NCBI RefSeq assembly: GCF_036321535.1 | Contig: NC_087436.1 | Span: forward strand, 34,164,001-34,228,000 | Reading direction: 5' to 3' | Source: Camelus dromedarius | Taxonomy: Eukaryota | DNA: 64,000 nucleotides | In this document: piece by piece, positions 5,456 through 54,400 of the stretch | Layout: the number at the start of each line of letters is the position of its first letter | Numbering within the stretch: the stretch's first letter is position 1 | The notes under the pieces: model-generated | The model's database searches: none | The model's input: the letters and a program-made list of their open reading frames with translations, nothing else | Told to the model about the DNA's origin: nothing | Translations under genes and position numbers: made by a program

Positions 5456-6519
5456 GATTACTAATAATTCTCCTTATTTAAGAGAATTTTTCTTAGAAAA
5501 TGAAGCTAGTTATTAGTTTTAAAATATGATATCGATTTGTTTGGCAAAATTATTAAGTACAGTTTTGCAAAATATAATGATTTCTATATATGTATATATT
5601 TTAGCCGACTGAACAAAGTACTCAAGACATATATTAGTCAAATCTGAGTAGTTATGATTATACTAACACGTATGTAGAAAGATGCTCAATTTCAAATCCA
5701 TTGTTCCACAGAGAAGTTTGAACAGGATAGTGCTGATCTTATCTTTACAATTTTTGGTAAACCTGCGTATGCAACTACTATTGTGTAGGAGTCTTGTGTA
5801 CAAGACCAAAAAACCCCCCAAAACAAACAAAACCCTGAGAGCTCCAGTAATACATTCACACTGTGTGTGCATGCACATATGTATTCAAAATAGCCTTTTG
5901 ACCAAGCCTCTTGTTTTCGTCCTTCCCTTTCCTATTCATACTCCACAAAATTACCAAAATATTTTAGCTTTTCTATTTTTAAAGATAATTTGCTATAATA
6001 AAGAACTCTATAAGACTCCCCTGCATGATTAACTTCAATTTGGGGGTGCATATTATTCATAAATTTTCAGAATCAAGTATCAACCTACATTTTAGCCCTC
6101 TTGGTCTGTCTTTCCTTCCAAGTATCTCTTATTTTATCTAAGTAGGCAGAATTAGTCACAGTTTTCCTTTGTTTCCGCAGTGCAGCTGATTTTCATACAT
6201 TAGAAGAACATTAAACACCTTGTTTTTTAGTTACTTAATTATCTGTCTCCTTCATTATATCATTAATCAAAGATAAGCATGCCATGTGATGCACATTTTA
6301 TACTCTCCAACATTTATTTCAGCATGTTAATATTTCATTTTCACTTTGAAGTTATTTTTTCTCAATATTGCCTAAACCCACTATTGGTAGAAATGGATTG
6401 CTTTAGAACCCTAAATCAAAAAAGAAGCTTCTTATATGATCCCTTTTGTATATTTTGTGTGTGTGTGTATGCTTTTACACCAGCATTTAACAATAAGATA
6501 CTCTAAAAAAACCTCACAT

Positions 6520-7055
6520 ATGTATGTTTTTTATGTGAAACATCAACATATACAAAAACACACAGAGTAACACAACAAACTCCCAAATAACCATCAATCA
6601 ACTTGAACAATTGTTAGTCCTCTCTTTATGGATTATTTTGAAGGCAATATTAGAAGTTGTATCTTTTTACCTGTAAACATGTCATTATGATCTCTAAAAG
6701 GTACAGCCTCTTTTTAAAAATATCGCCACCGTGCCATTACCACAATTAAAAACAGTAATTTCTTGACATCATCGAACATTCAATAATGTTCAGTTTTTCA
6801 ATTTAAAAATAAAGTAAATGTTTTCAACTTTTAATGTATAGATTACCTACCAATATATTTTTTTGTTGAAATGTATTTGTCATTTAGAGTGTCTCACTAT
6901 TTGGGTTTTGTGGTATAATACAGAATTTTTTTCTCCCTGTATTATTACTTTTATATTGGTATTTGGGTCTACAGGCTTAATCAGTATTAGTTTTTTTTCC
7001 CCTCATAAGACTACTTCAAGATGATAGGGTGATGTCGTGTTCTTAAATCTAGAGG
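6520..7055 (-). mobile_element. Old LINE-1 3' region (L1MC4/5-like)
   Basis: ggattattttgaaggcaat, gtaatttcttgacatcatcgaacattcaataatgttcagttt and later blocks resemble the antisense L1MC 3'UTR. Confidence 0.6.
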
Positions 7056-13489: not shown

Positions 13490-14408
13490 AAGACTTTTAT
13501 TTTTAGATCAGGTTTAGACTGACAACAAAATTTAGAGGGTGATACAAAGATTTCTTGCATGTCCCCTGCCTCATACACACAGAGACTTCGCCGTTAACAA
13601 CATCATTCACCAGAATGCTACATTTGTTATCAAAGATGAACCTATACTGATACATCACAATCACCCAAAGTCCATAGTTGACCTTAGGGTTCACTCTCAG
13701 TGTTGTACATTCTCTGGATTTGGACAAATATAAAATGACACGTATCCATCAGCCCTATATTGAAAATGAGTGGCGAGGATGCCCGCTCTTGCCTTGCACC
13801 TGATCTTCGTGTGAAAGCTTCGAGTTTCTCACCACTAAGTATGATGTTAGCTGTTAAGTTTTTTTGCAGATAGTCTTTATCAACTTGAGAAAGATTCAGT
13901 CAATTCCTATTTTACTAACAGTCTTTATCATGAAGGGGTGTTGGATTTTGTCAAATGCTTTCTCGGTATCTATTGATAAAATCACTTGATTTTTCTTTTT
14001 TAGTCTGTTGATGTCATGAATTACACTGATTGATTTTCGAATGTTGAAACAGCCTTGCATACTTGGGATAAATTCCACTTGGTCATGGTTTATAAGTTTT
14101 TCATGCATTGTTAGATTTGATTTTCTAATATTTTGTTAAGAATTTTTGGATCCATATTCATGAGAAATATTGTTCTGTAGTTTTCTTGTAATATCTTTGT
14201 CTGGATTTGGTATTAAGGTCATACTGTCTCATAGAATGCATTAAGAAGTATTTTCTCTGCTCTTAGCCTCTGAAAGAGATTGTAGTGAGTTGGTGTACAT
14301 TTTTCTTAAATATTTGGTAAGATTCATCAGTGAAACCATCTGAACCTTGTGCTTTCTGTTTTAGAAGGTTATGAATTATTAGTTTGGCTTCTTTGATAGA
14401 CATAGGCT
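13490..14408 (-). mobile_element. LINE-1 (L1MC1-like): 3'UTR joined directly to the ORF2 reverse transcriptase region
   Basis: 13490-13752 is an L1MC-type 3' end (gatgaacctatactgatacatcacaatcacccaaagtccatagtt). ORF 13896..14108(-) [55 protein letters not shown] is L1 ORF2 RT. Confidence 0.9.
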
Positions 14409-22799: not shown

Positions 22800-23872
22800 C
22801 TCTTCACCACCTAACTTTCCAACATTATTTCAGGCTATACACTCTTGCCCAGGAGGCACCAGTCACACTAGTCTCCTCTTAGGCTCTAGAGCTTTGTAAT
22901 AGTCTTCCTATTGCTGCTGTAACAAAATATCATGATTTAATGGCTTAAAACGGTACACAGTTATTGTCTCATATTTTCCATGGGCAGGAGTCCAGGTATG
23001 GTTTATCCAGGTCCTCTGCTCTGGTCTCACAGGCTGAAATCAAGGTGGTCACTAGGGTTGTGATCCTCATCTGAGGCCAATGATCCTTTCCCAAGCTCAC
23101 TGATGATGGGCAGATTCATTCCCCAGTGATTGTAGGACCAGGTTCCCTGTTTCCTGGCTTGCTGTGGACTAAAGCTTGCTGTCAGCTTCCAGAGGTCCCC
23201 CCTCTTCCTCTGGCAGTTAGAACTTACTCTTGTGCTTTCTTCCTCAAGGCCAGCAAGCTCATCCCTCTGACTTCTGCCACCAGCCAGAGAAAACCTTCAG
23301 CTTTTCAAGGGCTCACCTAGATTATTTTTGTATTTTAAGATTAAATCACCTGGAACTTCCATTTCATCTGAAAAAATCCCAATCCTAGCAGTTGCCAGAT
23401 TAGTGTTCACTTGGATAAATAGGGCATGGGGATTTTGGCTCTGGGCCGTCTTCTGATTCTGCCACCACAAGTTTATCAAGCAAAACTTTTCCTTCGAATC
23501 TCTTCTGCCTATTTGTCCCGTCTCCTTGAGTGCCCACCCAAGCTCTTTTCACATTTGGTTCTTTCTCTTCCTTCAGTCCCAGCATGAACATCACTTCTTC
23601 AGAGAGGTCTTCCTTGATTACCTTATCTGAGTAAGTACCCAACCTGAAACTTTATTTTCCCATCACAACATTCTTTCTTTCCTTCATAATGGTAATCACA
23701 GTCTTGTTTATTTCACTGATGCATCTGCCCACTTGTTTATTGTCCCTCTCTCCCACTGGAATATAGAACCTGTGAGACAGGAAAACATGTATTCCTCATT
23801 AGAACTCCGAAACCTAGCTGAGTACATGGCATCTAATAGGTGCTTGTGAATTATCTTTCATTGAATGAATAA
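22800..23872 (+). mobile_element. L2 3' portion, split by the MLT1 LTR
   Basis: catcacttcttcagagaggtcttccttgattacc...ttgtttattgtccctctctcccactggaatatagaacctgtgag...ttgaatgaataaa terminus; L2-like text also lies left of the LTR. Confidence 0.85.
22895..23469 (-). mobile_element. Complete MaLR solo LTR (MLT1E-like) inserted in an L2
   Basis: TG...CA termini (tgtaatagtcttcctattgctgctgtaacaa ... ttctgccaccaca). Flanking 5-mers AGCTT (22890-22894) and AGTTT (23470-23474) fit a 5-bp TSD with one mismatch. Confidence 0.9.
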
Positions 23873-26985: not shown

Positions 26986-27244
26986 ACTCCAGTTCAAACT
27001 TAGTAATATTTTCACCATAATTACCATGTTTTTTTGAACTCCAGGAAAAGAGAAAGTTTACTTCTTTGCAAGACTAATCCTAATACCTGTAATAGTGATC
27101 TCACGTCCTCTGGTTTCACCCCAAGACCTTGTCCCATCAAGTATCCCCTTGTTCTTTTGTATCAATCTCTTCTCCCACATAGGCTCCTTCCTTCAAGCGT
27201 AATATCATGTGTAAATCTCCCCTGCCTCATTTTCCAAATATATA

Positions 27245-29685
27245 TATGATGGATTAAATTGGGGTGTGAATTCTTTTACAAATCTCCCATTCCCAACACA
27301 CACACACACACACACACACACACCTTTAATCTGAGTGGGCTCAGTGACTGCTTTCACCAGGGAAGAACGATGAAATGGCACTGTGCCAGTGTCCAGGTTC
27401 AGGGCTTAACACACTTAACACACAGCTGCCATGTCTGCCTCTGGAAATTTTCTTTCCAGGAGTCCTCATCCACCTTGTAAGAAGTCTGACTTATCTTGAC
27501 TACCATGCTTGGAGTCCATGCGTTGTTACTCTGGTTAGTTGTCCAAACTGAGCCTATCATTCCTGTGATCTTTGAGAAAGTATCAGATATATGAGTGAAG
27601 CTGCTCTGGCCCCTCCAGACTAGCCCATCCACCAGCTGGGTACTATTGAGTGGCCTCAATCAATACCACATGAAGCAAAAGATTTGGCTAGATGATCCCA
27701 GCTTGAATTTCTGACCCACAAAATCATGAGATGAAATAAAATTCTTATTGTTTCAAGCCTCTAATTTTGGAGGTAATTTGTTGTGCAACAAAAGACAGAA
27801 TTTGGAATCTGGAAATATCATCACTGTCTTTTGGACCAGGTGGTAAACAAACTTGGATAGGCCTAGAGGAGAGTCTTAATAAGAATCTGGAAACATCTCA
27901 ATGATATTATTGGTGAAGGCTGGGAGGTCAGGGAGGAATTTTTAGTTGATGGTCAGAGAAAATGATATCCTCATGATGTGTAGCAGAAAATTTGGCAATA
28001 ATGTAGAAAATAAAAAGGGTATCTAATTAATTTATGGATCTGACTGGAGATTTCCAAGCAAAAGGTAGAAGTTGCCAATTCATTTCTCTTAGCTCCTCTG
28101 AGAAAATACAAAAGGCAGACATGAACTAAAGAAGGACCTACTCAGCTTTTGAGCATAGTATACCAGAAATACAAAGAAATAAAGTCTTTCTGAGTTGGAA
28201 AACCAATCTGTTTCTTATTCATATGCTCTTCCAGCAAAAACAAAAATTCAAAGTTAAAAAAGAAAAAAGGCTTCAGGATAAACACAAATCCAGCATGGAG
28301 CTGAAAGATTTTTCGTTAAGACCTCAGAAAGATATGTGTCAGTGCAACATTTACCCTTTCAGCTAGTCAAAAGCTGAAGGAATTCTCTTCTAAACAGAAT
28401 TCTAAAGACATTGTCTCTAGGATAGATGTCTACACAGAATCCCTCATAAGATTGAAAGGGTCTAACTGAGTGACCTAATAATATTCATTGAAAACCTGTA
28501 GCACTTTAAAGAGAACTCTTATCATGAGAAGCAGCAATAGCTTGGACTTAAAGGGACAGAGAACGTACAAAAAGAAAAGAGATATAATAGCCCCCTAGTC
28601 TTCCAAACAGGCATAGAAGGCCGTGTGGTTACAAACATGTGCCAAGAAGGATAATTCAACAGACAAAACCAACAGGCCATGGGATAGAACTAAGAGCTAC
28701 AGAAAACATTCCCAGGAAGCAGGACCCAGACCTAATCAAGGAACTGGTGACATCTCCCAGGCCAAATTTCAGAGTTTCTACGAAACAGTGCTGCTATATC
28801 CCTGGGTTTTTGTGTGTGTGTGTGTGTGTGTTTTTTTTTTTTTCCTTTGTAAATAGGAATGTCTCTTGTCTTGGTCTTATCATTATGTAGTAGGTTTTTT
28901 TTTTTTTTTTTTAGAAGAGGGGAGAAGAGGTGTAGAAAACTTACCAAGTTAGTTTGCACAGCTTTAGTGTTAGAGGAACCAGACTTAGGAAATGATACCT
29001 ATGGAGCGTCATTAACACCTGGATTTAACTTAGGTGGTGAGATCTAGAACTCGGAGCCAATGCTGTATTGGAACGAAACATTAAAGATCTTGGGGTGGGA
29101 TGAATGTATTTTTTAGCAGAAGGAAGCCAGAATATAAGTAACATAGAGAGAGAAATATGGTGAATTAAAGATGGCCCATAATGTTTTGAAATGTCTCCCG
29201 TCAAGAGCTGAGGACTGCTTCCCCTTCCTTTAGCTGTGGAAGGATTGTCTGAGTACTTGGACAAACAGAATGAGACAGAAGTGAGACTGTGCTAGATTTT
29301 TGCCTCAGTCCTTAAGACACTGACAGCATATCCTTTGATATCTTTCCTAACCTTTGCAAGACTTGCTTTTAGATCCCAGTTTACCATGCTGTGAGACACT
29401 GAAGCCACACGGGGACACCATATAAAGGCACCTGAGTGGACAGCCCTGAGTTCCCAAATAGCAATCAGAATGAACTCCAGCTCTATGAGTGAGTCATCCT
29501 GGATATTCAGCCCAGCTGAGCCTTCGGATAACTTCTTCCCCAGTCACTAATTCACGCTGATTGAGAGACTCCAACAATTCATTTGGTCCTCGTCAAAACT
29601 CAGTACTACAAAAAATAATTACAAATTCTAGTTTTAAGCCACATTATTATGTGAATATATAACACAGAAAAAGACAAATGAGAAA
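27245..29685 (+). mobile_element. MaLR element LTR-internal-LTR (MLT1G/H group)
   Basis: 5' LTR about 27245-27800, internal about 27800-29155 ending ggggtgggatgaatgtattttt...gagagagaaa (PPT-like), 3' LTR about 29156-29685. Both LTRs begin alike (tgatggattaaa / tggtgaattaaagatggccc). Confidence 0.85.
27296..27323. repeat. (CA)n microsatellite
   Basis: Seen directly. Confidence 0.95.
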
Positions 29686-29689
29686 ATGA

Positions 29690-29860
29690 ACTGTCTTATT
29701 TTGTTGCTGTCCAACAATTTCCACAGTCTCTCCAAAATTATGTGTCATTCTTGCTAGAAGTAGTTGTGTGGCCGTGAGCTATGTTTTGCAGACCATCTTG
29801 GATTCAGGCATGACCATGAGATAATTTCAAGCATCTGAATGTGGGCAGAAAAAGATTATC
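29690..29860 (+). mobile_element. Old MLT1 LTR fragment
   Basis: ttttgcagaccatcttggattcaggcatgaccatgagataatttcaagcatctgaatgtgggcagaa. Confidence 0.45.
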
Positions 29861-30131
29861 TATCTAATTCATGATGCCTCTGCTCTAAATTTTAATTTTT
29901 GCTTAGAATAGTTCAATATTATTTTTTTCCCACAAAAACATTCATTTTTAAAAGGATCAGTTGAAACCTCAGCCCCTTCTAGAAGACCCATTCTCCCACA
30001 CATGCAGGCTCTTATCACCTCTTCTACCTCATTTGAATCAGTACTTCTTCCTCTATGTCCCATCACATTTTAGAATCATTATCTTTATTTACCTCATTAT
30101 AAATGGTTGAATAAATATCCCCATCCATTAC

Positions 30132-30485
30132 TATTTCAGTCCGTTTAGGCTACTGTAATGAAGTACCACAGACCGGGGGGCTTATAGACAACAGAAATTC
30201 ATTTCTCGCAGTTCTGGAGGCCGGAAGCCCAGGGTGGGTGCCAGTGTGCTCAGATGAAAGCCCCGACCCACAGACTCACGTGCGGAAGGGGCTAGGGAGC
30301 TCTGTGGGATCACTTCTGGAAGAGCGCTAATCCCTCTCAAAGGCACCCAAGATGACTCACGCATAGAGCTGGAGTGAATTCTGATTGCTATTTGGGAACT
30401 CAGGGCTGTCTACTAATACCATTGCCTTTGGAGGTTAGGATTTCAGCATAAATTTGGAGGGGACAGAAACATCCAGATCTTGACA
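30132..30485 (-). mobile_element. MLT1A-like solo LTR carrying a foreign 68-bp segment
   Basis: agtccgtttaggctactgtaatgaagtaccacagaccggggggcttatagacaacagaaattcatttctcgcagttctggagg...ttaggatttcagcataaatttggaggggacagaaacatccaga. Confidence 0.9.
30347..30414 (-). repeat. Inverted copy of 29435-29502 (68 bp, 63/68 identical)
   Basis: Manual base-by-base alignment of the reverse complement. Confidence 0.97.
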
Positions 30486-31221
30486 TCAAGGAACTAAATT
30501 TCTAGCACTTAACCCAATGCCAGATATATACTAAATATTTTATGTTGAGTAGAAAATGTATACATTAATTAACTACAGTCTTCATTTAAATTTCTTAGAA
30601 TGTATTAAGTTAACATGTAAAAAGCCAAATTTTCAATTCTATATTTTATCTTTTTTGCCCAAATTACTAAAAGCTTTAAAGGAAAACCTTGGTGTTTCCT
30701 TCTGTAGAGTGAGGTCTTAAACAAATTTATACAGCATTGCTTTGGATAGATACAGTGGGGAAAAAAAAGGTTTTGAAAGATTGACTTGAAAATAAATTCA
30801 CTTTAATTTATCCCCTTCCAAGAGAAATTTTACCAAAGTTTCAAAACATTTAAAATTGTAACAAGAAAGTTGATAAATTATTATATTTGAATCCACCATG
30901 TTGCTATCAGTTTAGGATTTTTTTTTAAACTTAAAGTTTTAACACTAACTGTTAGCAAAAAACTCCATTTTATTATTACAACTCTGGCAGAACAAACTTC
31001 ACTTCTTTAGAGCTAATTAGGTCTTCTCTTTCCTATACTTTGAGAATGTCAATATAATTTTAGATAGAAAACAGAGAATGACAGTTCCAAGCTAGAAGTA
31101 AATTGTGTATTTTATATTCATCATAGAGTAATATTCATCAGCATGTGTACTTGAAATTTCTATAAAAGAAAACATACACTAATTTGAAATGTTGTTCCTT
31201 CCTTAAAGTCATCCGTGAGTG

Positions 31222-31255
<34 letters not shown>
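31222..31255. repeat. Compound (TA)n(GA)n microsatellite
   Basis: Seen directly. Confidence 0.95.
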
Positions 31256-32099
31256 AAACTCAATATTGTTAGGATAATAACTATGCAGGAGAAGCAAAAT
31301 GCTTTATTTACTATTTGACTATACCTCGAAACATGGACACAGATTATCTTTATTTTTAAGAGAAGTAGACAGCTACAATTTTAGGTCTTTCTATTTGAAT
31401 GATTATCCTGTATCATATCAAGTCAATCATTGGGACCAAAGCAAGGAAGGAAGATCTTGTCAGCACTGTAAACCTGAGGTTGGATGAGAGAAAAAAGTCT
31501 CAAAACACTCTTTGTATTTTCTCTTTCCAAACTTTTAAAAGTTTATTTACATTCCAACATTTTTATATTTGAGTAAAACAGTATTACACTCTGACCTGTT
31601 AAGGATAAAATATTACTCCTTTGACTACCAACAAAGCAAGGTTTTCTTAAACAGATAATATTAAAAGAAGCATGTAGAATTGTCAAAGATGACGTGTATG
31701 TGAATATAGACTTAATTATTTTCCACTAGGATGTGGACGATGCTTTGGCACATGAAGTGATTAAATAGTAATGTGCTGAGAGATAAAGTTCATACTTTTA
31801 TACTTCTAAGTGTACGTCTGACACTTTTGGTAGATATAATTAACTCTGCTTTGAAATTCTTTCTTTCTTATGTGAGTCTAGTTTGGTATTTTATATGTAT
31901 ATAGAGCTAATGACTCTAAATTGATTTCCTTGTACTTTATCTTATGAAGCATATATTTTTTTTCTTTTTTTCTCATCTTAATATGCTCTTAATGTTTAAT
32001 TCTACTTGAAATATTTTTATAGATGTCTTGTGTATACATATACATTCATTTATTTGAGAGTAAAGGCATAATACTTCTCATATGGAATATAAATATATA

Positions 32100-33815
32100 T
32101 ACACATACACATACAAATAAAATAGATGCAGCCAAAAAATTTCCCAGGTGTTTGTACCAATTTACATTTGCACTGACAATGGTGACAAAATTTGGTTATA
32201 GCCAATCTTTTAAATTTTAGATATTCTTCTAGGTATGTAAGAGTATCTTATTTTTGGTCTTAGTGGCATTTCCCCAATTATTAATGAAGTCAAACATCTT
32301 TTTCTATGTTAATTGTTGAAGTGATTAATTTTAGTGAAGTGCTTATTCAAGTCCCAACTCCCATTAATTACTGGACTTTTTTCTCATTGATTTGTAGATT
32401 ATATGAGGTTTCTTTTGTTGTTGTTATATGTGTTGCAATGTTTTATTCCATTTTTATTTTTTAATGCTATCTTTTGAGTTATAGAATCCCTTATCTTTAA
32501 TGTAATCCATTTTATAAGTCTTCTCTTTAATATTAGTGCATTTTATATTTGGCTTAAGAAATCTGTCTCAGAGTTTATAAAAACATTCCCCTTTGTTAAT
32601 TTTTAGAAGCTAATTGCTATGCTATCTGCATTTTGAGTACCGTATGGAGGATGTGACTAAATTTTATTTATTTTTTATAGTTATACCTTTCATTCTGGAG
32701 TATTAATGAAAAGATAATCCTTCTCACTATTTTTCAGTACCACTTTTGTCAAAGTTCAGCTATCCAACTATGAATGGGCCAGTTTCTGGACTCTTTATTT
32801 TGATTCATTGTTCTATTAATCTATCACCATGCAGTGCTGCACTATTACAATTCATGTAGACTAGCAAAGAGGTGTGATACTCGGTAGAGTAAGTGCTCCC
32901 ATTCTTAAAAACCGTCTGCTCTAATTTTGACTCTGAATTTCTATATGCAATTTAGAATTAATTTGTGAATTCATGTAAGACCTTGCAGAAATTTTAGGAA
33001 AATTACATAGAATCTACACAAAAATTTCTAAAGAACTGATGTGTTTAAAATAGTGTCTTCGTGTTCCATGAATGTGATATTCTTTTCCCTTTATTTTTAT
33101 TTTGAAAATTTTTCTCAATAATATTTAACAAAATTTTATGTTGATATGTTGTACATCTATTATAACATCATTTCCAGTTATTTTGTTTGTGGTGCTCCTA
33201 TATAGATTACCATCTTTAAAATTTTATTTTCAAATATTGTTTGTAAGGATAGTTATAAGGAAATAAAGAAGAAAATAAAATTGCTTTCTTTGTATTTTGA
33301 CTTTTTATCCAGAAAGTGTTAAGCGTATTTATCTATACTAGTATTTTATCTGTAGACCTTCTAGATTTATGTGTGCCCAATCATATTATCTATAAATAAT
33401 GGCAATATTATTTCTTCTTTAACCAGTCCTTAAAACGTTTTATTTCTAAGTCTTATATTTTTGCACTGACTAGTAATTCCTGTATAATGTTGAATAAAAT
33501 ATATAATAGAGTATATTCTTACCTTATCCCCATTCTTTATAAGAAAAATGTCAATATATTACATTTAAGTATGACTTTGATCTAGTTTTTCTTTATAATA
33601 TTAGGGGAGTTCCCTTTTCTTTTTAGTTTTACCAAAAGCTTCATTTATCTAATTATTTAATAATGAATGTATGTTGAATTTGATCAAATGCTTCCCTAGC
33701 ATCTACTGGGAAAATTCCATGACTTTTTTCCTTTAATTATTAATGTAATGATTTACCCAAACATCTATATGTTAAATCACTTCTCTATCCCTAGAATATA
33801 CCCAAATTTGGATGA
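32100..33815 (-). mobile_element. Ancient LINE-1 ORF2 (L1ME-like)
   Basis: gtttgtaccaatttacatttgcact, ggcatttccccaattattaatgaagtcaaacatcttttt, tgttgaatttgatcaaatgcttccctagcatctactggg. Confidence 0.85.
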
Positions 33816-38333: not shown

Positions 38334-38690
38334 AGGTGTAGAGGTGTGGAACTTTAGATTGAGTTGCCAGGGAAGACTCCATGGAGATGATTCTGAGTAA
38401 GGACCTAAAGAGAGTCAGTCACATGGTTTTCTTTGGACAGAATATTTTAAGCAGAGGAGAAAGAAATCCACAAGACTAAGGTGGTATGTGCCTAGGATAT
38501 TCAAGAAACAGTGAGAACCCAGGGGGTGAAAGTAAAAGGAAGGGGAGACCGGGTACAGACCGGGTACAGCAGAGCATGTGGGGCCTTAAGGTCCATCAAC
38601 AGGAAAGATGTCAACTTCCATTCCTGATGAGCTGAGAAGCTGATGTGGAGTTTTGACTGTTACAATCTGATGGGTCTAAACAGATTCTCC

Positions 38691-40559: not shown

Positions 40560-42866
40560 GATTCAGGATGTCCAATGATTATATACAAAACTGATACAGA
40601 AATTTCTCACCTGATAAATAACATTGAATAAATCACCTAGCACAAAAAGAAAGAAAAAAAAAAAGAGAGAGAAAGAAAGAGAGAGAGAGAAAGGCTTATA
40701 GCTAAAGAATGGAAAAAGACACACCATGAAAATACTAAAAGAGACAGCAACAGGAAGAAACATGGATACAAATAAAAAAGATGTACAGGTAAAACTCATC
40801 ACTAGAAATTAAGAGAAACATTTCATACTAAAAAAAGTTTCAACAGAAAGATATAAAAATTATAAATTTGTATGTACCTAAAAATATGACTTAGAAACAT
40901 ACAAAGTCAAATCTGGCATAACTAAAAGGGAATGGACAACTTCACAGTAGCAGGAGATTCTGAGATACTTCTACCAGTAACTGATTGAAAAAGTAGAAAA
41001 ATATAAATATTACAAATAGCACATTTGAACAACAAGATTGCAAAATTGAACTACTTAAATGTAAGGAACTGTGATCCTCCACAGAACAATATACACATTA
41101 TTTTTTAGCACATGAACAAAACAATGACCATGTGCTAGGTTGAAAGCTTGTTTCATTAAATTTCAAAATCTAAATTATGCAGAAAATACAATCTGACAAC
41201 AATATAATAAAGCAAGAAATCAACAGAAGGTAATTACAAAATACTATATGTCCTTAAATAAAACAACATATTATTAAATAACTCAAAAGTTAGAGAATAA
41301 ATCATACTTAATATTGGAAATCATTTATAAACAAATAATAATTCATAGTACATAAAATGCTACCTTAATACCTTGTCATGTTTAAAGAGAAATATTGCCT
41401 TAAATGAATGTATTAGGAAAGAAAAAAACCTAAAAATCAATTAGAAATTTAGCAACATACAAACAGCAATTTAAATCCCAAAAGTATAAAAGAAAGAAGA
41501 TAATGAAAATAAGAACAGGAGTCAGTGAAATAGAAAACAATCATATACTAAAATCATCAACAGAGGTGAAGTTGTTTTCATGAAAAGTCATTAAAAATGT
41601 TAAGTCCCTAAAAATAATTAGAAGGATAAAAGTGAAAGGCACAAATAATAAATGTCAGTAATGAATGGGATAGAATGCTACAAACCATCCACACAAAACA
41701 TAATATTGTCATACTAATAATTATTGCATGATTGCATCATTGATATGCATTATACATAATATGAATAATCTTATGCAAGTTAATTTGCAAATTTAGAAAT
41801 ATTTCAAAACAAAACAAATATTGACAAATATGAATACTTCTATTAAAAAAGCATTTGTAAGCAATATTAACTTCTCACAATGAAACTCTGTGCTTAGATT
41901 GTTTCAACCACAATTGATACTAAAATCTTAAAAAATACTTAATGCCATATTCCCAGAAACTTTCAGAAAACAGAAGAGAGAACACTCACTATATTATTTT
42001 TATGAATTCAGGCTTTGATGCCAAAACATAAAAATTATTATTAAAAATAACATTTACAAAGCAATCTATTCATTAACTGGATGCAAACATTTTAAACAAA
42101 TATATTAAATCAAATCCAGTAAATATTTTAAAAGGATACTATTGTTTTACTATTTGGTTTTTATTTTATAATTAGAAGTGTACATTAATATTTGAAAAAA
42201 TTGATGAAATTTATCACATTAACATAATAGAAAAGAAAATTCTGTGATTAACAAAAGATACAGAAAAACATTTGATAAATTCAACAACTATTCATGATAA
42301 AGAGATTACAAAACATAGGAACTTCCTTATTATGATAAATGTATAATCACATTTTACAAGCATCTTACTTGATGAGTTGAATTAAAATTATGTATAAAAG
42401 CACCAAGAAAACTTTTTTAAAATTGGACAGACTTACTTTAAATGATTTTAAGATTTATTATGAAATTATATAATTAAGACATTGTACTATAAGAATAGAA
42501 AAATACAACAATATATAAATAGAGAGCCCAGGCACAAATGAACATACATAAGGACCAGACACAAACTTGGCAGTGCACAGCAGTGGAGAAAAGGTGATCT
42601 TTTCAATAAATGGTGATGGGATGACTGGAAATCTGTGTGGAAGAAACTTGACCACTATTTCACATCATACACAAAAATCAATTTGAGGTACGTTGTAGAT
42701 CAATGTGACTGAAAAAAAAAATACAGTTTCTAGAATATACCATACAATAACGTCTTCATGCTGTCAGAGTAGGGAAGGATATCTGCAACAGAACCCCAAA
42801 AGCAGTTGCCATGAAGAAACAGACTGATAAACTGGAATCCAAATTTAAAATTTCTGTTCATTAAAA
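40560..42866 (+). mobile_element. Ancient LINE-1 ORF2 (endonuclease through RT, internally deleted; L1ME/M5-like)
   Basis: A-rich. aaagaatggaaaaagacacacc (EN), gatacagaaaaacatttgataaattcaacaac (RT '[10 protein letters not shown]'-like), cttttcaataaatggtgatgggatgactgg. Confidence 0.85.
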
Positions 42867-43406
42867 GTTCACCTCACACCAGTCAGAATGGCCATTATTA
42901 AAAAGTCCACAAACGATACATGCTGGAGAGGCTGTGGAGAAAAGGGAACCCTCCTACCCTGTTGGTGGGAATGTAGTTTGGTGCAGGCATTATGGAAAAC
43001 AGTTTGGAGATTCCTCAAAAAACTAATCCAGCAATCCCACTCCTGGATATATATCCAGAGAGAACTCTAATTCAAAAAGATACATGCACCCCAATGTTCA
43101 TAGCAGCACTCTATACAATAGCCAAGACATGGAAGCAATTGAAATGTCCATTGAAAGATGACTGGATAGAGAAGCTGAGCTATATTTATACCACAGAATA
43201 CTAAACAGCCATAAAAAAGAATAAAATAATGCCATTTGCAGCAACATGGATGAACCTGGAGACCATCATTCTAAGTGAAGTGAGCCAGAAAAAGAAAAAA
43301 AAATCATATAATATCATTCATATGTGGAATCTAAAAAAAAAAGAAAAAGAAAAAAGGAGACGCTAATGAACTCATCTACAAAACAGAAACAAATTCCCAG
43401 ACAAAA

Positions 43407-43985
43407 TGTTGCAGAAAAATGTGTTACAGCTCAGTGTTACAGCTCAGTTGTGACAGCAACCTGAATCCCGGCGAGAGACCAAGCAGCACTCAGAGGGTTG
43501 GAGAACACAGGATTGTTACACCAGCAGGCCCAGAGAAGTTAACACTTGAAGCTCTGGACCCCGTCTGTAAGTTTACACAGGCCTTTTATAGGCTGCCAGT
43601 TTTACACTTTGCAACATCATATGCAAATAAAGTATAACAGAAGTTGACCAACCAGGAACAAGCTTTGTAGAAATAGACCAATCAGGAGTGAGAGAAATAA
43701 CCAATCAGGAGTGAGCTCCGTGCAAATGAAGTACTACAAATGGACCAATCAGAAGTTAGGGAAGTGGACCAATCAGAAGTGAGAGTAATAACCAATCAGG
43801 AGTGAAGGAAATAACCAATCAGAAATGAGCTCAGGGAACCAACAGAATTTTAGGTGTAAGTCAGCCCCTTTAGAGGCAAAAAGTGAGATAGAGCCTCTGG
43901 GCCAGGGAACTAGACAGGTGTTGGCAGGAGAGTAGTGGCCCTGCCTGGGGGTCCTGCTGGTCTTTTTATGGGGCTTCCCACCTCA
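43407..43985 (-). mobile_element. Solo ERV LTR (579 bp; ERV1-like by inference)
   Basis: TG...CA termini interrupting the L1 3'UTR (…ccagac / atagtaaataatcttatggttacc…). Minus-strand TATAAAA at 43584-43590 and tandem CCAAT units. Confidence 0.88.
43584..43845 (-). promoter_or_regulatory. LTR U3 promoter motifs: six ACCAATCAG (NF-Y) boxes, octamer ATGCAAAT, TATA
   Basis: CCAAT starts at 43678, 43701, 43745, 43769, 43792, 43815; octamer 43621-43628; TATA 43584-43590. Motifs are seen directly, activity is unproven. Confidence 0.65.
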
Positions 43986-44169
43986 ATAGTAAATAATCTT
44001 ATGGTTACCAGGAGAAAGAGGGTAGGAAGGGATAAACTGGGAGATCGAGATTTGCAGATACTAACTACTATAAAAATAAACAAATTTCTCTTCTATAGCA
44101 CAGGGAACTATATTCAATATCTTGTAGTAACCTATATGAAATATGAAACAATATGAAAATTAATATATG

Positions 44170-44194
44170 CATATATATATATATATATATATAT
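44170..44194. repeat. (AT)n microsatellite within the L1 3'UTR
   Basis: Seen directly. Confidence 0.95.
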
Positions 44195-47014
44195 GACTGA
44201 AACATCACAGAGATAGGAGGCAGTTAGAAATAAGCCTTGATTACTAATTGAAAATAGAAGGATGAGACAGAGGAGAGGATTTATTTAGAATGATGAGTAG
44301 GTCTTGAGAGTCTGGCTGGACAATTATTAATGGTTGGAAATATTAATAAATTGATTATATTTATGATCTGGTATGAATACAGAGAGAGAATAGTGCTGCA
44401 GATAGAAATTCAGTAATCTTACATTTTATATGCATACTGTTGAAACTGAACTTAAAGCTGAATTCATGAGAATAGAATTCCTAAGCCAGAAATACCATAT
44501 AGACTAGACCTGAGGAAACTAAAGAAATGGTACCATTCTTGTCAAAAGACATTCCCATTTAGCTTGCAATGTGGGTCTTATCAATAATCAAGTTTCTTTA
44601 CAGGATAAATAAAAAGAGAACATAAAAAGAGTAAAAATGATTCTTCTTGGAAGCGATCGTGTTTAATTAGCTCTTTATAAGTGGTGTAATAATTGGCAGC
44701 ATTCAAATTGCTGACAGCTTCGCTTTCTCACTGCCTTCTTTTACTCCCTTCTTTTTTCCCCTAGCTTCTTTTAAAGGAAGATCAAAGCCTTTATAGCTGA
44801 GTGAATGCTAATGGTGCATACATTTATTTGAAAGGCTTCAAGCCCTTGAAAATCTGCACATAACATTTTTTATTCCCAAATGTCTGCCTGTAAGTGTGTT
44901 TGATACTATTAGAGGAATTATCTCTACTCCACACCCCTCCACCCAGTTCTTTTAAAAAGAAAACAAGTCTACTTTCACATTTTGGAAATGTTGATTAAAA
45001 TGAGAGTTACATAACCTTTTTGACCCTCCACAAAATAGATACTTTGAACCACAGACTTGCCATAGAGTTAATGAGTCTCTTCCTCATGCATATGCACTTC
45101 CCTCCACATTGTACGCGGGGTGAGGAGGGGCCTGAGTCCACCACACAGGCTTGGGAACATGATTAAATCCTCTTGCTGGTGTATGTATGACGCTGACAGG
45201 TGGGAGGTGTTGCTGCTACAGTTTGTAAAGAAAGAATGGAATATTTTCAGTTGAACAAAAACATTTCCTGGATTCTTACAAGAACAAAACACCTTTCCAC
45301 TTTTTTTGAAAGAGTAAGAATTACCCGTGGCAATTTTGCAAGGCTGGTCTAGAGGTCGTTCAGAAAATGAAAGCTGATAAATACTAACGCTGATAGGATG
45401 GTTTCAGAGGAATTAATTTTCTGAAGTATTGGCTAAAATTGTTTATTTTATTTTGATCTAATTTAATTGTTTATAAATGTAATTAATAAATTTAACAAAT
45501 TTAATTATTTGATTTTGGGGTTTACTCTTTGAATATACATTATAAAGGGATATTTAGTGTTGTTGAATATGACAGCCAAATTTCAAGGGATACTATGTGT
45601 TCCTGGATACTTTGCCTGAGATACAGAAAGTCTTAAGTTACTAGTTGTTATTCTTGCTGTTTTTGTGAAAGGAGGAGAAAGAGGGAGGAGACAGGGAGAA
45701 AGCAGAAGATTTAAAATACCTACAGCACTCAGTGATCTCGGGAAACTGTACGGATTTTTCTGGTAACATCTCACCCTCTCTGGTAACATCACTGAGTGAA
45801 GAATGGCTTCATTGTATTAAATGGCACTTTGCTAATTCGAAAACACAAACAAAAGCTAGTAGAGCTAAACTGAACACTTCGGTGGTTCAGGAATTGGAAA
45901 AACTGCTTTATAACATCTGACCCTTGTCCTATCTAAGAAGATACCTCCCAACGCACCAGTTTATGCAAGAGTATTAAAAAGGGAAGAATTTCAACTAAGG
46001 CTTCAAAACATTAAACACCAATCCCCTAAATTCCAAAAAGAGGTTCAAGAACACCTGCGCTGGACACACAAAAGAAGGGAGTAAAGTCCTTAGTGGCTCT
46101 TGGCACTTCACACCGCCACCTATTTAGAGGAGAACAGAGGGCAGGAGCCGTGAGATGTGGAGGATTTCTTTAGAGTAAGATTCTCGGGCATCTTAGACAC
46201 CCACCCTCCACAAACACACCCAAAGCTAGTAGAAACCAGGAGATCTTCCTTTGAAAGAAGTGTAGAATTTTGACAAGTTTACAGCCCTAAACATGTTAAC
46301 ATGATAAAAGTGTATTATGCACTGAGACTGGCTGAGGGATTAAAGTCACCAAAATGTGTTTTATTGTCTGACAGCATCCAGAAAAATCTCTTAATCGTAT
46401 TTTAAAAAGTGGGCAAGAATTATCCCCATAGAGAATGGCTATGTAGGGGGAATCACTATAGAAGAAAATATAATTTCTGATCACATCCAATGAGCCTCTC
46501 TTAAACAACATGCTGACTTTACTGTATGTCAACTACCAAAATTTGTTTTATAATTAAACTTGCAGAATCCTCCATATGTTCAAATCTCCTTCATGCCCAT
46601 TTTCTGGCAAAATGAAATCTAATTCAGGAATTTAACCAGGAGTGTTTCATCCTAATTTCTATTCTTGTTGAGCAGTGTTTGTTATTTAATATATGAATAT
46701 CTCTATGGGTCTCTATGGTAACAAAGAAGTGTTTTGGTAGTGATTGGAGTGGTTCAGATGGTTGAAGGGGTGATAAGAATTATTGTTTTTAAAAATTCCA
46801 GGCCCCCTGCCAGTATTTTAGAAAACTGTCGCTCTCCAAGCTTATGATTTTGTTTAACTGCAAAACTTTAAAAAGGAAGAGCTCCCTCAGTGGGGAAGAC
46901 TACTTTGTAATGAGGACAATTCTGAAGCATTTTGTAATATGTTGGCAAAGAATTAATGTCAAGGTGTTTACTCCTTTGCTAAACTTAGATTGTGAACTGA
47001 TTAATTAAAAACAA

Positions 47015-48389: not shown

Positions 48390-50925
48390 CAGACAGAAGT
48401 AACTGAGCTGTGAGGTGGTGTGGGGGTTAAACTGTGTGCTCCGCTCCTGACCTTCAGATCGTACCTCACGGTAATGAGTCTGTGTAACTTCAGTTATTTA
48501 TACCATAGAGGCTGCATTTGATCGTTTCATAATTCTTAACTACGGAATTCAACTCAAATCTATTAATTGTATTTCTTCAATGAGATTATCAAAATAGCTA
48601 AATCTATAATGATGCTAAGCAATTAAACAATGTATTTCAGACACTATAATTTTCTTTCTAGGAAGATCTAGTAGAGCAGCAAATAAACACTACCTGGTGT
48701 CACAGAGCAGCTTTCTGTAACACGAGTATTCCTGAAAAACATTACTGGGCCCCGAATAGCTCTTTTAAAATTTTTAACTATAATGCCCTTAAAAATTTTT
48801 TAATTAACTATAATAATTACCAAAAAGAAAAAAAAACAGTTTAGCATCATATTAATAGTTGCCTTTGAGAAATAACTGTTTAGATCATTTCTAAATGATC
48901 CGTCTGCAGAGGATGTAACATGGTACAATAACAATGCCATCCGTGGGCCACAGAGCTATCAGAGCGTCAGCAGACCACAGTTAACAGAACAAATATTTTT
49001 GGCTGTAGAGAGGTAGGCTCTCCAAACACAAATTAATCTCTTTAATGGATTTTCCTTACCTTCATGAAAAATGCATTATGGGCTCTTAAGTCACACTCAA
49101 CACATTGTTAGGGTTTTATATGATGTGGGGTTGGCACACAGATGATTTTTCTTTCACACTGTGGGTAGAAAAAACAATGATCTGGGTGGTTTAGAGCCAG
49201 ACTATTTAATCACTAGGTAAAAGACTGGTGACCAAGAGAAGCTGCATGATTCTGATGATTCCTCTTACTGCAGAAGCTCCTTAAGGTTTGTTGAGAGGTT
49301 AAAAAGAAACTGCATTAAAGGGCTTCCCACTTGTGAAATTTTAAAAGTATCAAAAAAACTGGCCCCAGTTAACCTCTTTACTAAATGTTATGATTTTCTT
49401 AAAGGCTGATTAAAAGAAAGTTGTCCTAACACACTGGAATTGCTCGTATTTATGACTAGCTTTCCTTTTATAATTATAATTATTTCTAAGAATCATTTAG
49501 ATTTGTGTTATTTCCTGACGTGGATGTCATGTGTAGATGGACCTTCATTTGGACTGAACGCCCACATTCACCAGGTCACGTGCATGGTGTAACTAAGTTT
49601 ACACCGCCTCGGGTAGGTCCAGATGTTGCCATGTTCCTTCCAGTGTTTAATCAGACACCCAGGCCCAGCCAGCCAGGAGGTCAGTAAGAATTTTCAGAGG
49701 GCAGATGTGGGGCACTCGTGAAGCTGTGGTCTACATTAGAGTTTTATGATAGCACCAGCCCTGCCTTTTCTTCAGGTTTTATCCCCCCCAGTTTTGGTTT
49801 CGTAAAACTGTTTCAAAACTACGAAGTTTTAATTTTTTAAATTGTCTTTTAAGAAGAGGTCAACAATCAACGTTCACATGGTTCAAATTAGTTAACATTG
49901 ATCAAAGCTGAACCCGTGCCTTAGAAGTGACTGTAACTTTTCCTGGGAGAAATCACCTTTTGGCAGAAGGACAAGATGGGAGAACCATGCACAGAACTGG
50001 GCAGAGCGCGCCTCTCTGAAACAGGAAGTCATGTGGAGTTGGCAACACAAAGTCTGCCTCCTGGTGCTGTTTGAAAGATCCGGACTTGACCATCATTGAT
50101 AATGCTGAGGATTCACAGGATGCCTGAATTTCAGGCAAAGTCCTTTGCAAATATATCCCAGGAAGAACTTACATGACCTAAATATTTTGGGTTGTCAACC
50201 TGTAGTATGACTCTATTTCATCACAAACACCAAGTGAAGAAGAATTAGGAGGGCAGTTCAGAATTTTCTGAGCATTCAAATAAGTAATGGAACTGGAACA
50301 ATAGTATTCAAATTAAAGAGGTAATTTAAGTTATGGTGGAGAAGCCCTGCTGTGACTATGGTGTCTTAGAGTAATTGGCTTTAGTTACATAACGCTGGAA
50401 GGTTTTTTTTTGTTTGTTTGTTTGTTTTTTCAATTAACTGTGTGCAGCAACCATGCATTTTCTGAGAGTTTATCACTGAACTCTAAACTCATGTAAAATC
50501 TAATGTGTAGTATGGCCTTAATTTCCCAAATTTCACAGTTAGTAATTTTTCTAGTACAGAGGCTGAAAGTCAGTTCTCCTTTTTATAGTGAACTAAGTTT
50601 GTAAAATACTGTATTTTATCTCACAAACACCAGCCTAATTGTTACTTATTTCATTTTCCAGAGGAATAAATGAAGATACAGAAAACAAGTAAGGCTTTAT
50701 TTTTATTCGTGCTCCATTCCCACCCATTGTTCACAGAATAGGTGACATAAATTAGGTCATATAAATTTCTTGATTAAAAAAGGGAAAAAAACTGCAAGGA
50801 TTCCTTGTGGTGTTAATAGTAAATCCAAACTTAACACAGGAATCCAAACAATTTAGAAGAACTGACTCAGTCACCAACCTCTGCTTGTACCACTGTTCAC
50901 TCCTCCATCTCAGCTCTTTGGTCAC

Positions 50926-51429
50926 TGTGGTCACTGAATAGTGATCCCAAAGATGTCTGCATCTGAACCAGGAACCTGTGAGTACACTACCTTACGTACA
51001 AAAGGAATTTTACAAATGTGATCGAGTTAAGGATCCTGAGATAGGAGATTATCCTGGATTATCCAGTTGGGCCCAATGTAATCACATCTATCCTTAGAAG
51101 AAGGAGACAGGAGGATCAGAGTCAGAGGGAAATGATGTAAAGGTGGACACAGAGATCGGAGAGGAGAGAAGATGGCATGATGCTGGCTTTAAAGATGGAG
51201 CAAGGAGCCACAAAAGGATTATAAGAGAACTCTAGATGCTGGAAAAGGCAACGAAATGAATTCTCCTTCCGAGCTTCTATCAGCAACACAGGCCAGCTGA
51301 CACCTTGGTGTTAACCCAGTGAAACTGATTTTGAAGACTTCTGACCGCTGTAAACATATGGCAATAAACTTATGTCCCCTTCGACCCCTCCGTCCGTGGT
51401 TATCTGTTAGAGCGGCAATAGGACACACA
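50926..51429 (+). mobile_element. MLT1D-like solo LTR
   Basis: gagttaaggatcctgagataggagattatcctggattatccagttgggcccaatgtaatcaca...gctggaaaaggcaacgaaatgaattctcc...gcggcaatagga. Confidence 0.92.
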
Positions 51430-54400
51430 TGGAGCTTTCATTTTCTCACATACATGAAATGCGACCTTGACTCCGAGATTTGTGGTGTCTCCAGACTCTA
51501 AGACGTAGGAAGGCACGTCTCTCTCTTCTTCATCCTCGTCTCTGGCATAAACAGGGGCTGAATCAGTATGTGTTAAATAAAATAATGATTGAAAGAGAAT
51601 GTCAGAAGGTAAATGTATGTACTTAGAAACTGCTTCGGGAGAGCAATTTTTCTTGTTCCCCCCAGGATCCATTAGGAAAGGGTGAGCTGGAAACTACTAA
51701 GAACGCAGTGCCTGTGATTCCCTGGAAACACTCTCAGCTTGGATTCTCCTCACTCAGTCCCATACAGAGTGGAGGCACATAGGAAGGAAGTGATGAAAGC
51801 TCTGGGAGGTGACTCACTCATCTTTATTCAAAAGTGATAACTGAGTTCCTGATTACTGCCAGCACGGCAACCCACCCAACTCCTAACTGTGGTATCGCTA
51901 ACTGCCGAGCTCCCGGAGGGGTATGGTGTTCATTATTCTATCAGATATCCCTTTGATGAGGGAAAATATTACAAGAAAGAATTACTTCATGTTTTCAGAA
52001 ATGCTGCAAATGAATCCCAATTGCAACTGGCCAATCTGTGCCAAGGGTCTTCTCTTAAACCTCCTCTTACACCTCCTCCAACAATCTTACTGTAGCTGAT
52101 GAGATAACTTCCTGATGTTCAGTGAGTTCCATCAGACAATATACTGTCCTCTATTATTCTTTTTTACACAAAATTCTTTGTAGAACCATCACTAACATAT
52201 ACTGTCACTATCAGAAGGTGGTGAGTTTGAGCTTCTCTGATCTTACAAACTGTGTTTTAACATACCCAAGTATGAGTACCTATTTGAAAATGCATGTGCT
52301 GTTCTTTTCTATGCAATATATTAACAAGAGACAAGCTTTGGGATCTTGACTGCTTCTTATTAAATATCTTGAAGTGTAATTTTCATTTACTGTTGCTGTT
52401 TAAACTGATTTTATAGATTCAGTTACTTAAAATGTGAGCTATACTTTGTGCAAAGAAACAATTTTAATAAATATATTTTCAAGCAATGTATGAATATAGT
52501 GAAGTCACATTATTTTATTTGATGAGTAGTACTTATGCCAAATTAAAAGTGTAGGATTTTTTCTTTCACAATAATGTATGAAAAATAGTTCCTTTGAAAG
52601 CAGTGCTTTTATGTTAAATTAAAATTTCACAAAAATACTTTGTTTTTGTCTAGCTTTAAAATCATTTAAATTTGTTGAAGTCATACTGTACTATTTCTTG
52701 TGGATGAACTAAAATTTAGGAGTCATTTTCTTCAGGATTACTTATGAAAACTGGCATGAAGTCATAAAAAAAATTTCAGAACCTCTTTTGTTTGACCTAG
52801 TCTTACAAAAATAATATATTCCCAGAAATTCCCCGTCTAAAAACAAGATACTATAATTGTTTTGAAATATTCTGTTGAAAGTTCATGGGGACTTATGATG
52901 ACTTCTTGATCAGGGAAAATGGCATAAAACAAAGAAAAAAAATTATAAGCAAACAACAAAAAACTTAAACCCAGACTTTTCTACCTAAGGAGGGTAATGA
53001 TAAAGGGCAGTTAACAAGTGTTTCCTTTGAGTAGCTTAATGAGAGTCACAGGAACACAGAGAACTATTTTACTGAGATAAAATACTCATCCAAAAAAATT
53101 GTAATGGAAAATCTGCTGAGCATTCAAGACTTTCAGGGGTTACCCCCTGGGACACAGAACATTTAATGGATTTTCAGTTCTGTTCTAAACTTTTTTTTTC
53201 CTATGCTCCATCAGTGTTGTGGAAAATATCAGATTTTCTTCAGCTTTCTTTTCTTTTGCCTTAGAAACTTCTGGCCTTTGTAAAATGTTTAGAGTTGGAG
53301 AAGATTTCATCTTTCTACAGGAAGTCCAGTTTAGTTGAAGATACTACAATCCAAAACCTGCAAAGATTATAACAAATGTACGAAACAAGTATGCATTTAA
53401 AATTTATCTAGTTTGCTATCAAGCTATACAACTACAGTGGACTCAAATTATATTTGTGCCTTGGAAATAAAATAGAATATTAATTTACCACTCAATGAGG
53501 GGGAAATAAGATCAGCTGGCAGTGGGATTAAATTGCTTCTCTTGCTCCAAGTACTCTCATTTTTTAAAAAAGTAGGCAGAGACTAGTTAATTGAAATATT
53601 TTGAAGTTACTCTTTTGGAATTTTCTTTTGAGCCTTTCAGTTTTGATGCCTTAATGTCCCTGACTTTTAAGCAGCAAACTTAATCAGCAAATTTGAATTC
53701 TACTTTATTAAAACCACAATATCTGTTATCAGCCCTCCTGGAGCATTGCTGATTATTCTGCCCTTCACTGAAAGCCACTGGGAAAGTTTCTATTTTGGCA
53801 AAAGAAAATTCTGTAATTTTTATTCTGTTATTGAATAGAAAACTGAACAATATGAGAGTTAGGAGAAAACAGAAATGTCTTCAGGGGACAGTAAGTCACT
53901 TGGTTTGTCTAAATTAACTGTTAAGACAATCAAGTTGGTTTTGCTCTAATGTGAGTTTACTTACAAAATTTTGAAGTCATTTCAAGCATTATTACTGCAT
54001 ATACAACGTAGAATGCTAATTACCCTCTGTTGAATATTTTAATATGTTCCTCTGCAATACAATGTTTAATGATAGAGAATAAATTAAACTTATATTACAG
54101 GAAGAAAGAGAATCTACAAACTGGTGCTTCTTAATTGTTACCAAAGGAAAAGTAACAACAACACATGGATTCAGTGGGAGTATTAATAATTCAATCAACA
54201 GATGGCTAAGTGTACCTCTGAAAAATACAGACAAATTAATTCTTACTTGCTGTCATCTATTGGGAGATTAAAAAGAATTGTTTTTCTATCTTAATATATT
54301 TACGTTACTTACATGCCAAGGTATTTTAGTGAAATAATCTGATATAAGTAATAAAAGAGTATGAAGGGTTATTCTGCAATTGCTGCGCCACATAATATCC

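What the first reader, a model, noticed from the sequence alone, without database searches (positions are those of the whole stretch)
29435..30414. 68-bp inverted templated insertion: one LTR copied into a different LTR 844 bp away
Seen: 30347-30414 (ccaagatgactcacgcatagagctggagtgaattctgattgctatttgggaactcagggctgtctact) is the reverse complement of 29435-29502 at 63/68 positions with no gaps. The donor lies in an ancient MLT1H-like LTR. The copy sits inside an unrelated MLT1A-like LTR, which resumes at 'aataccattgcc'; by recall some MLT1A bases are lost there. Independent copies of such old LTRs would be much more diverged, and there is no TSD or poly(A). Inference: this is a local template-switch or DSB-repair event (FoSTeS/MMBIR or polymerase-theta templated insertion) long after both LTRs inserted. 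It leaves a 68-bp inverted repeat able to form dsRNA if transcribed.
Basis: partly seen in the sequence, partly recalled or inferred. Interest (0 to 1): 0.7.

Follow-up and report, generated by a model that had tools for sequence, protein, structure and literature searches.

The report
Backwards repair copy in old LTR
A 68-base stretch of an ancient viral-type repeat also sits, backwards, 844 bases away inside an unrelated repeat of this mammalian genome; it is most likely an ordinary, probably functionless scar left when a DNA break was repaired by copying nearby sequence, a kind already counted by the hundreds in other mammals.

Summary
Observation confirmed: 30347-30414 is the reverse complement of 29435-29502 at 63 of 68 positions, ungapped, 844 nt apart; the next best match in the window is 33 of 68. 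An independent, uninterrupted copy of the host LTR family (L017) aligns to both flanks but not to the insert, with only about 5 nt between the flanks. So the insert is foreign and little was lost at the junction; a separate 35-nt gap lies about 14 nt to the left. No target-site duplication over 3 nt, no poly(A). New anatomy: the host flanks form a 12-bp imperfect hairpin round the site, and their motif also lies 2 nt before the donor segment (0 of 4,652 random donor sites pair as well). This suggests why this donor and orientation were used. It fits the known repair-mediated duplications of Pace et al. 2009 (824 in human, 202 in cow). It does not fit the published limits of polymerase-theta insertions. 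Age roughly 19 Myr (6-46) at an assumed rate. Outgroup empty site, genome-wide copy number, long reads and transcription are untested. Real but ordinary.

The parts
29435..29502 (+). Donor (template) segment, 68 nt, inside an old LTR-like repeat
   Evidence: its being native to its LTR rests on recall and on the copy being foreign to the host
30347..30414 (-). Inverted copy, 63 of 68 identical; unambiguous core about 30350-30409
29424..29432 (+). 9-nt motif ending 2 nt before the donor segment; likely docking site for the broken ends
   Evidence: the 9-mer occurs only here and at 30339 in the window; best pairing site of the left end among 19,298 site-strands within +-5 kb
30339..30347 (+). 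Same 9-nt motif at the left junction, same strand as the donor flank
   Evidence: (D15)
30333..30345 (+). Left arm of a 12-bp imperfect inverted repeat (one bulge) in the host flanks
   Evidence: duplex -13.5 kcal/mol; 4 of 9,079 random partners and 12 of 21,167 adjacent pairs as good
30423..30434 (-). Right arm of that inverted repeat; holds 7 nt of the motif on the bottom strand, the orientation needed to prime the copy. 30423-30425 differ from L017 at three clustered positions that improve the pairing
30410..30414 (.). Right junction: 5 nt shared by donor (4 of 5) and host family copy (4 of 5); 2 nt exact microhomology at 30413-30414
30332..30333 (.). 35-nt gap in the host relative to L017 (L017 327-361), between short similar repeats, about 14 nt left of the insert
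   Evidence: also by eye against Fig. S1 p. 51 of PMC2671141
30132..30485 (-). Host solo LTR, MLT1A-family (MaLR), interrupted by the copy
29156..29655 (+). LTR-like repeat holding the donor; the 3' LTR of an LTR-internal-LTR arrangement (27340-29655). Subfamily label MLT1H-like and boundaries are recalled, not tested
   Evidence: only a 44-nt match (30 of 44; 1 of 300 shuffles as good) between 29278-29321 and 27372-27415

Best explanation
The 68 bases at 30347-30414 are a backwards copy of 29435-29502 inside an unrelated LTR, likely written in one germline repair event (synthesis-dependent strand annealing or microhomology-mediated template switching on a nearby template), and likely without function. 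Shown: the copy, its foreignness to the host family, a 0-5 nt loss, 2 nt of exact microhomology at the right junction, the hairpin-like host flanks, the shared motif beside the donor. Inferred steps: (1) a break or fork stall occurred in the loop of the host's imperfect inverted repeat; (2) because the flanks are palindromic, both 3' ends carried the motif that also lies just before the donor; (3) the right end's bottom strand paired there (9 pairs with a 4-nt bulge) and primed synthesis from 29435 towards 29502, which gives the inverted orientation (order 1-4-3-2 in the four-point model); (4) after 60-68 nt the new strand left the template and rejoined the left end at 1-3 nt of microhomology; (5) the allele drifted to high frequency and gathered 4-5 changes, about 19 Myr (6-46) at an assumed 2e-9 per site per year. 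Confidence in the class (local templated copy) is about 0.92; the number below is for this specific route.
For: 63 of 68 identity against 33 of 68 background. Flanks contiguous in L017 while the insert has no match there (338 and 407 of 500 shuffles as good). No TSD over 3 nt. Flank duplex -13.5 kcal/mol, 12 of 21,167 adjacent pairs as good; L017 has a weaker form, -8.8, 298 of 21,167 as good. Right end pairs at its true priming site better than all but 247-408 of 19,298 site-strands (top 1.3-2.1%), whereas the left end at its would-be priming site ranks at 23-35%. Either end, any orientation: 0 of 4,652 shifted donor positions as good; 9-nt match null 12 of 20,000 to 82 of 6,000 by flank width. 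Length, distance, junction type and host type all lie inside the published class (PMC2671141: at least 50 bp, donor under 5 kb, peak near 1.2 kb, microhomology 2-9 nt, deletion 1-15 nt).
Against: The pre-event state is read from one paralogous copy about 23% diverged and one published alignment read by eye, not from an orthologous empty site. The pairing tests were chosen after seeing the motif and are not independent, because the two ends are palindromic. The strongest match (9 nt, left end) is in the orientation that would give a direct, not an inverted, copy. Three clustered differences from L017 (30423-30425) create much of the right end's match; if they arose during or after the event the match is a consequence and not a cause. 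The right end has better partners elsewhere within 5 kb (top ten). Sequence scars cannot separate SDSA from replication-fork switching. Copy number outside the window is unknown.
Confidence: 0.6

Rival explanations
1. Replication fold-back: the nascent top strand stalled at 30346-30349, looped back 844 nt onto itself, copied 29502 to 29435 and returned (order 3-2-1-4, intra-strand). Same class of outcome, opposite direction of synthesis, no break needed.
For: The donor precedes the site on the top strand, the condition for intra-strand switching; 3-2-1-4 and 1-4-3-2 are the majority patterns in great apes (PMC7954356 passages). 1-3 nt at the left junction match the donor end. A hairpin in the host could stall a fork.
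Against: The left end pairs poorly at its would-be priming site (4,449-6,758 of 19,298 as good).
Confidence: 0.22
2. Polymerase-theta end joining wrote the insert as an aborted synthesis tract.
For: Short junction microhomology and a tiny deletion fit end joining; inverted templated insertions are known products (PMC7165422, PMC2943611 passages).
Against: PMC7165422 defines these as 3-30 bp from within 50 bp of the break, single tracts rarely over 10 bp; this is one ungapped tract of at least 60 nt from 844 nt away.
Confidence: 0.07
3. Capture of a free fragment (excised DNA or cDNA) or a copy from a third, unseen locus; nearness to 29435 would be incidental.
For: Class 2 templated insertions patch breaks without TSD or poly(A) (PMC5110952, part 1 of 4). 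Genome-wide copy number could not be checked.
Against: A 93% match 844 nt away, in a window where old LTR copies barely align at all, and a pairing site for the broken ends directly beside it (0 of 4,652).
Confidence: 0.06
4. Ectopic gene conversion between two related LTRs lying in opposite orientation; in each LTR's own sense the copy runs the same way as the donor.
For: L017, oriented like the host, matches the upstream LTR 27325-27810 on the minus strand (0 of 100 shuffles), so host and donor element are inverted relatives.
Against: No homology flanks the tract: host flanks against the donor LTR, 226, 194, 253 and 11 of 300 shuffles as good; L017 against the donor LTR, 61 and 88 of 100. 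The tract adds about 63 nt instead of replacing an equivalent stretch.
Confidence: 0.04
5. Assembly artefact.
For: No long reads were examined; 12 of the 14 full holders may be the source of the assembly.
Against: The arms differ at 5 positions. Contigs of X7 and X8, from two further studies, hold all 163 sampled words; that some of these words span the junctions is inferred from the sampling density.
Confidence: 0.01

Closest known systems
Repair-mediated duplications (RDs), Pace, Sen, Batzer and Feschotte 2009, PMC2671141 (read: text parts 1-6 of 8; Table S1 part 1 of 15; Fig. S1 parts 1 and 11 of 24; a supplement search)
   Same: A transposon interrupted by at least 50 bp copied from a donor under 5 kb away; no poly(A); short microhomology and small deletion; 824 in human, 202 in cow, 192 in dog. 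Table S1 lists hosts of the MLT1A and MLT1H names (22 and 13 term hits, 2 rows of each seen), and cases of like size, distance and divergence.
   Different: Here the donor is itself part of an old repeat, a case their pipeline says it systematically excluded. No camelid was surveyed. Table S1 has no orientation column, so how often RDs are inverted is not given in what I read. No orthologous empty site is in hand here.
MMBIR templated insertions (MMB-TI), PMC8421209 (passages only)
   Same: Inverted copy of a nearby template with 2-12 bp microhomology; about 100 germline events of 25 bp or more per person.
   Different: Defined operationally within 100 bp of the insertion; this template is 844 nt away.
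Short-range template switches, four-point model, PMC7954356 (passages only)
   Same: Single inverted repeat from order 1-4-3-2 or 3-2-1-4; raised hairpin potential at the starting point in some ancestral sequences.
   Different: Template within 100 nt, median 12 nt copied; this event is longer-range and near the long end of sizes.
'Doublets' of Thomas et al. 2004 (not read; known only as cited in PMC2671141, and from recall)
   Same: Short local paired duplications under 100 bp.
   Different: Recalled as exact matches, mostly on the same strand; this pair is inverted and 7% diverged.

Membership tests
Repair-mediated duplication (PMC2671141) | Host transposon interrupted by at least 50 bp not alignable to the family, family positions resuming within 30 bp | tested here: met
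   About 5 nt between the flanks in L017; insert unmatched; same by eye in the MLT1A1 alignment. One paralogue plus one published alignment.
Repair-mediated duplication (PMC2671141) | Donor more than 50 bp and less than 5 kb away | tested here: met
   844 nt
Repair-mediated duplication (PMC2671141) | No poly(A/T) tail; not a retrotransposition product | tested here: met
   None seen; longest TSD candidate 3 nt
Repair-mediated duplication (PMC2671141) | Junction microhomology 2-9 nt, small deletion or filler | tested here: met
   2 nt exact plus 4 of 5 at the right junction, 0-5 nt lost; left junction ambiguous, 1-3 nt
Repair-mediated duplication (PMC2671141) | Only one other copy in the whole genome | not testable with these tools
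   No genome held; single in the 64-kb window
Repair-mediated duplication (PMC2671141) | Empty orthologous site in an outgroup | not testable with these tools
   No orthologue found: 0 look-alike windows; none among 70 motif loci
MMB-TI / short-range template switch | Copy inverted relative to a local template | tested here: met
MMB-TI / short-range template switch | Template within 100 nt | tested here: not met
   844 nt; the limit is their search range
Polymerase-theta templated insertion (PMC7165422) | 3-30 bp insert, template within 50 bp of the break | tested here: not met
   60-68 nt from 844 nt away
L1-mediated (class 1) templated insertion (PMC5110952) | TSD and poly(A) tail | tested here: not met
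Host is MLT1A-family MaLR LTR | Alignment to family copies and to the curated family model | tested here: inconclusive
   Aligns to an independent copy L017; resemblance to the MLT1A1 alignment judged by eye only; subfamily not resolved
Donor is MLT1H-family MaLR LTR | Alignment to the curated family model | not testable with these tools
   Recalled label; the two motif loci L066 and L067 were not family copies

The most novel reading that the evidence does not exclude
Donor choice and orientation in local repair duplications are set by a palindromic break site: a hairpin in the acceptor both attracts the break and puts one motif on both 3' ends, so both ends dock side by side on one strand of the single nearby site that carries the motif; the end that primes decides between an inverted and a direct copy. 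This locus would be a clean fossil of that rule, which could be tested on the thousand or so catalogued repair duplications. My searches (listings only) showed no paper stating it, but they were narrow.
Probability: 0.2. Interest if true: 0.45.

Novelty: new member of a known kind. Interest (0 to 1): 0.17.

Why it matters
Little on its own: one more germline repair scar in non-coding repeat DNA, with no coding exon or RNA family found near it. Its modest value is as a rare-event marker whose age range straddles the Old World / New World camelid split (about 16.3 Ma, PMC12337305 passage) if the genome is camelid, and as an unusually readable case for how a repair template is chosen. A dsRNA role would matter only if one transcript spans both arms, which is untested.

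Tried and rejected
No whole genome is held, so copy number outside the window is open. No reads or contigs were laid on the locus, so the empty allele, outgroup state and transcription are open; the RNA-type runs X15-X20 hold 0.06-0.25 of the words and count as no evidence. A 23-base host motif found 0 loci in viral, metagenome and genome contigs. A looser motif found 49 and 16 loci, of which 1 of 65 (L017) was a family copy and 64 scored as chance; 3 and 2 viral loci were chance. Plasmid and phage BLAST: no match. The upstream LTR was meant as a twin control for the donor segment but aligns over only 44 nt, outside it. Other LTR-like segments of the window do not match the 68-mer (7 to 69 of 100 shuffles as good). 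No second templated piece stands out at the junctions: other exact matches are 8-10 nt. Rfam: 0 hits in 27000-30100 and 30300-33000. Pfam on the 150 longest of 235 stop-free frames of 55 aa or more: only a reverse-transcriptase fragment passes its cut-off; short exons would be missed, so an intronic position is not excluded. A full-text motif search gave 2 papers, one primer and no retrievable passage. Earlier notes near this place or in relatives: none. Table S1 of PMC2671141 gives no orientation; 14 of its 15 parts and 22 of 24 parts of Fig. S1 were not read and may hold closer cases.

Full report
Observation. The inverted repeat is exactly as described: arms 29435-29502 and 30347-30414, 68 nt, 63 matches, no gaps, 844 nt apart. 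The match ends abruptly on both sides. The best other ungapped match of the 68-mer in the window is 33 of 68. In a self-BLAST it is the most identical of the 13 pairs whose arms lie over 100 nt apart (92.6% against 69-84%). All 163 sampled words of 29100-30800 stand in the contigs of 14 of 24 listed runs; 12 may be the source of the assembly, two (X7, X8, separate studies) are not so marked. With five differences between the arms, an assembly artefact is very unlikely.

Setting. The window looks like non-coding mammalian DNA: of the 150 longest of 235 stop-free frames only a reverse-transcriptase fragment passes a Pfam cut-off, and Rfam finds nothing in the two ranges searched. That it is camelid rests on my recall of the L1 ends and on unchecked notes from the same genome. 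By recall the donor lies in the 3' LTR of a MaLR LTR-internal-LTR arrangement at about 27340-29655; the two LTRs now align over only 44 nt (30 of 44; 1 of 300 shuffles as good), which shows how old these repeats are beside a 93% match.

Which arm is the insert. No genome is held, so I looked for independent copies of the host family. A strict motif found none. A looser one returned 65 loci, of which one, L017, is a real family copy. Window 30282-30344 and 30410-30467 align to L017 276-373 and 379-438 (0 of 500 shuffles as good), while 30350-30409 has no match in L017 on either strand (338 and 407 of 500 as good). So the 30347-30414 arm interrupts the host, only 0-5 nt are missing at the junction, and a separate 35-nt gap lies about 14 nt to the left. 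The MLT1A1 alignment printed in Fig. S1 of PMC2671141 shows the same by eye and supports the label MLT1A-family on the minus strand. There is no TSD over 3 nt and no poly(A). Gene conversion between the two inverted LTRs is unlikely, since neither the host flanks nor L017 align to the donor LTR.

New anatomy at the junctions. (a) A 9-nt word ends at the left junction (30339-30347) and also lies 2 nt before the donor arm (29424-29432), on the same strand; these are its only two places in the window; a match this long between the flanks arises in 12 of 20,000 to 82 of 6,000 random placements, by flank width. (b) The host flanks are an imperfect inverted repeat of 12 bp with one bulge (30333-30345 with 30423-30434; -13.5 kcal/mol; 4 of 9,079 random partners and 12 of 21,167 adjacent pairs as good); L017 has a weaker form (-8.8; 298 of 21,167), so the hairpin is partly a family trait and the insert sits in its loop. 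(c) Both broken ends would thus carry the motif. The left end's best partner among 19,298 site-strands within 5 kb is the donor flank, but in the orientation that would give a direct copy. The right end's bottom strand pairs at the true start of the copy in the top 1.3-2.1%, in the orientation that gives the observed inverted copy; the left end at its own would-be priming site ranks only at 23-35%. Taking either end and any orientation, 0 of 4,652 shifted donor positions pair as well. These tests were designed after seeing the motif and are linked by the palindrome. Three clustered differences from L017 at 30423-30425 supply much of the right end's match and may post-date the break.

Mechanism. 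Most likely a break or stall in the hairpin loop was repaired by the right end invading the motif-bearing site 1 kb away, copying 60-68 nt and rejoining the left end at 1-3 nt (inferred; 0.6). A fold-back of the nascent top strand is the main rival (0.22). Polymerase-theta as defined in PMC7165422 (3-30 bp, template within 50 bp; passages) does not fit (0.07). The class as a whole, a one-off local templated copy, I put at about 0.92. Divergence is 0.077 after correction (95% range 0.025-0.184), about 19 Myr (6-46) at an assumed 2e-9 per site per year; counting the adjacent pair 30376-30377 as one event gives 15 Myr (4-40). This straddles the camelid split of about 16.3 Ma (PMC12337305 passage).

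Function. Nothing points to selection.

Comparison. Pace et al. 2009 (PMC2671141; text parts 1-6 of 8 and parts of two supplements read) found such events by the same logic, a transposon interrupted by a copy of nearby DNA: 824 in human, 202 in cow, donors peaking near 1.2 kb, microhomology 2-9 nt, deletions 1-15 nt, no poly(A). Four of six defining features are met here; single copy genome-wide and an empty orthologous site could not be tested. Their pipeline excluded donors that are repeats, and their table gives no orientation. It works like an MMBIR templated insertion or four-point template switch (PMC8421209, PMC7954356; passages) but fails their 100-nt range. Seven earlier notes of this scan, in at least six other genomes, hold the same search words and describe like scars (unchecked). 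I saw no paper on this locus or on such events in camelids in the listings; these searches were narrow.

Verdict. Interest 0.17. The boldest reading left open, that a palindromic break site picks the donor and sets the orientation, has probability about 0.2 and is testable on the published catalogue.

Noticed in passing
window 27340-29655: LTR-internal-LTR arrangement (recalled as MaLR/MLT1) whose two LTRs align over only 44 nt; either very old or a chimera of two subfamilies.
   Followed up: partly
window 43408-43987: An LTR-like piece with repeated CCAAT-box units (tandem matches at 43622-43832) appears to sit inside the 3' end of an L1-like element (about 42870-44205); labels recalled.
   Followed up: no
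window 13899-14135 (-): Reverse-transcriptase fragment, Pfam RVT_1, E 3.9e-9; similar pieces at 42187-42303 and 33657-33756; likely old L1.
   Followed up: no
window 22880-23480, 50900-51450, 27325-27810: Further LTR-like segments distantly related to the host family copy L017 (0 of 100 shuffles as good each).
   Followed up: partly
window 38548-38569: Perfect 11-nt tandem duplication in an old repeat (seen directly).
   Followed up: no
window 30376-30377: The two adjacent mismatches are each other's reverse complement and make a 6-nt palindrome in the copy; possibly one micro-inversion or palindrome-correction event instead of two substitutions.
   Followed up: partly
L017 (1-760): A mammalian-type LTR repeat inside a public metagenome contig, so probably host DNA carried in that assembly.
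   Followed up: no
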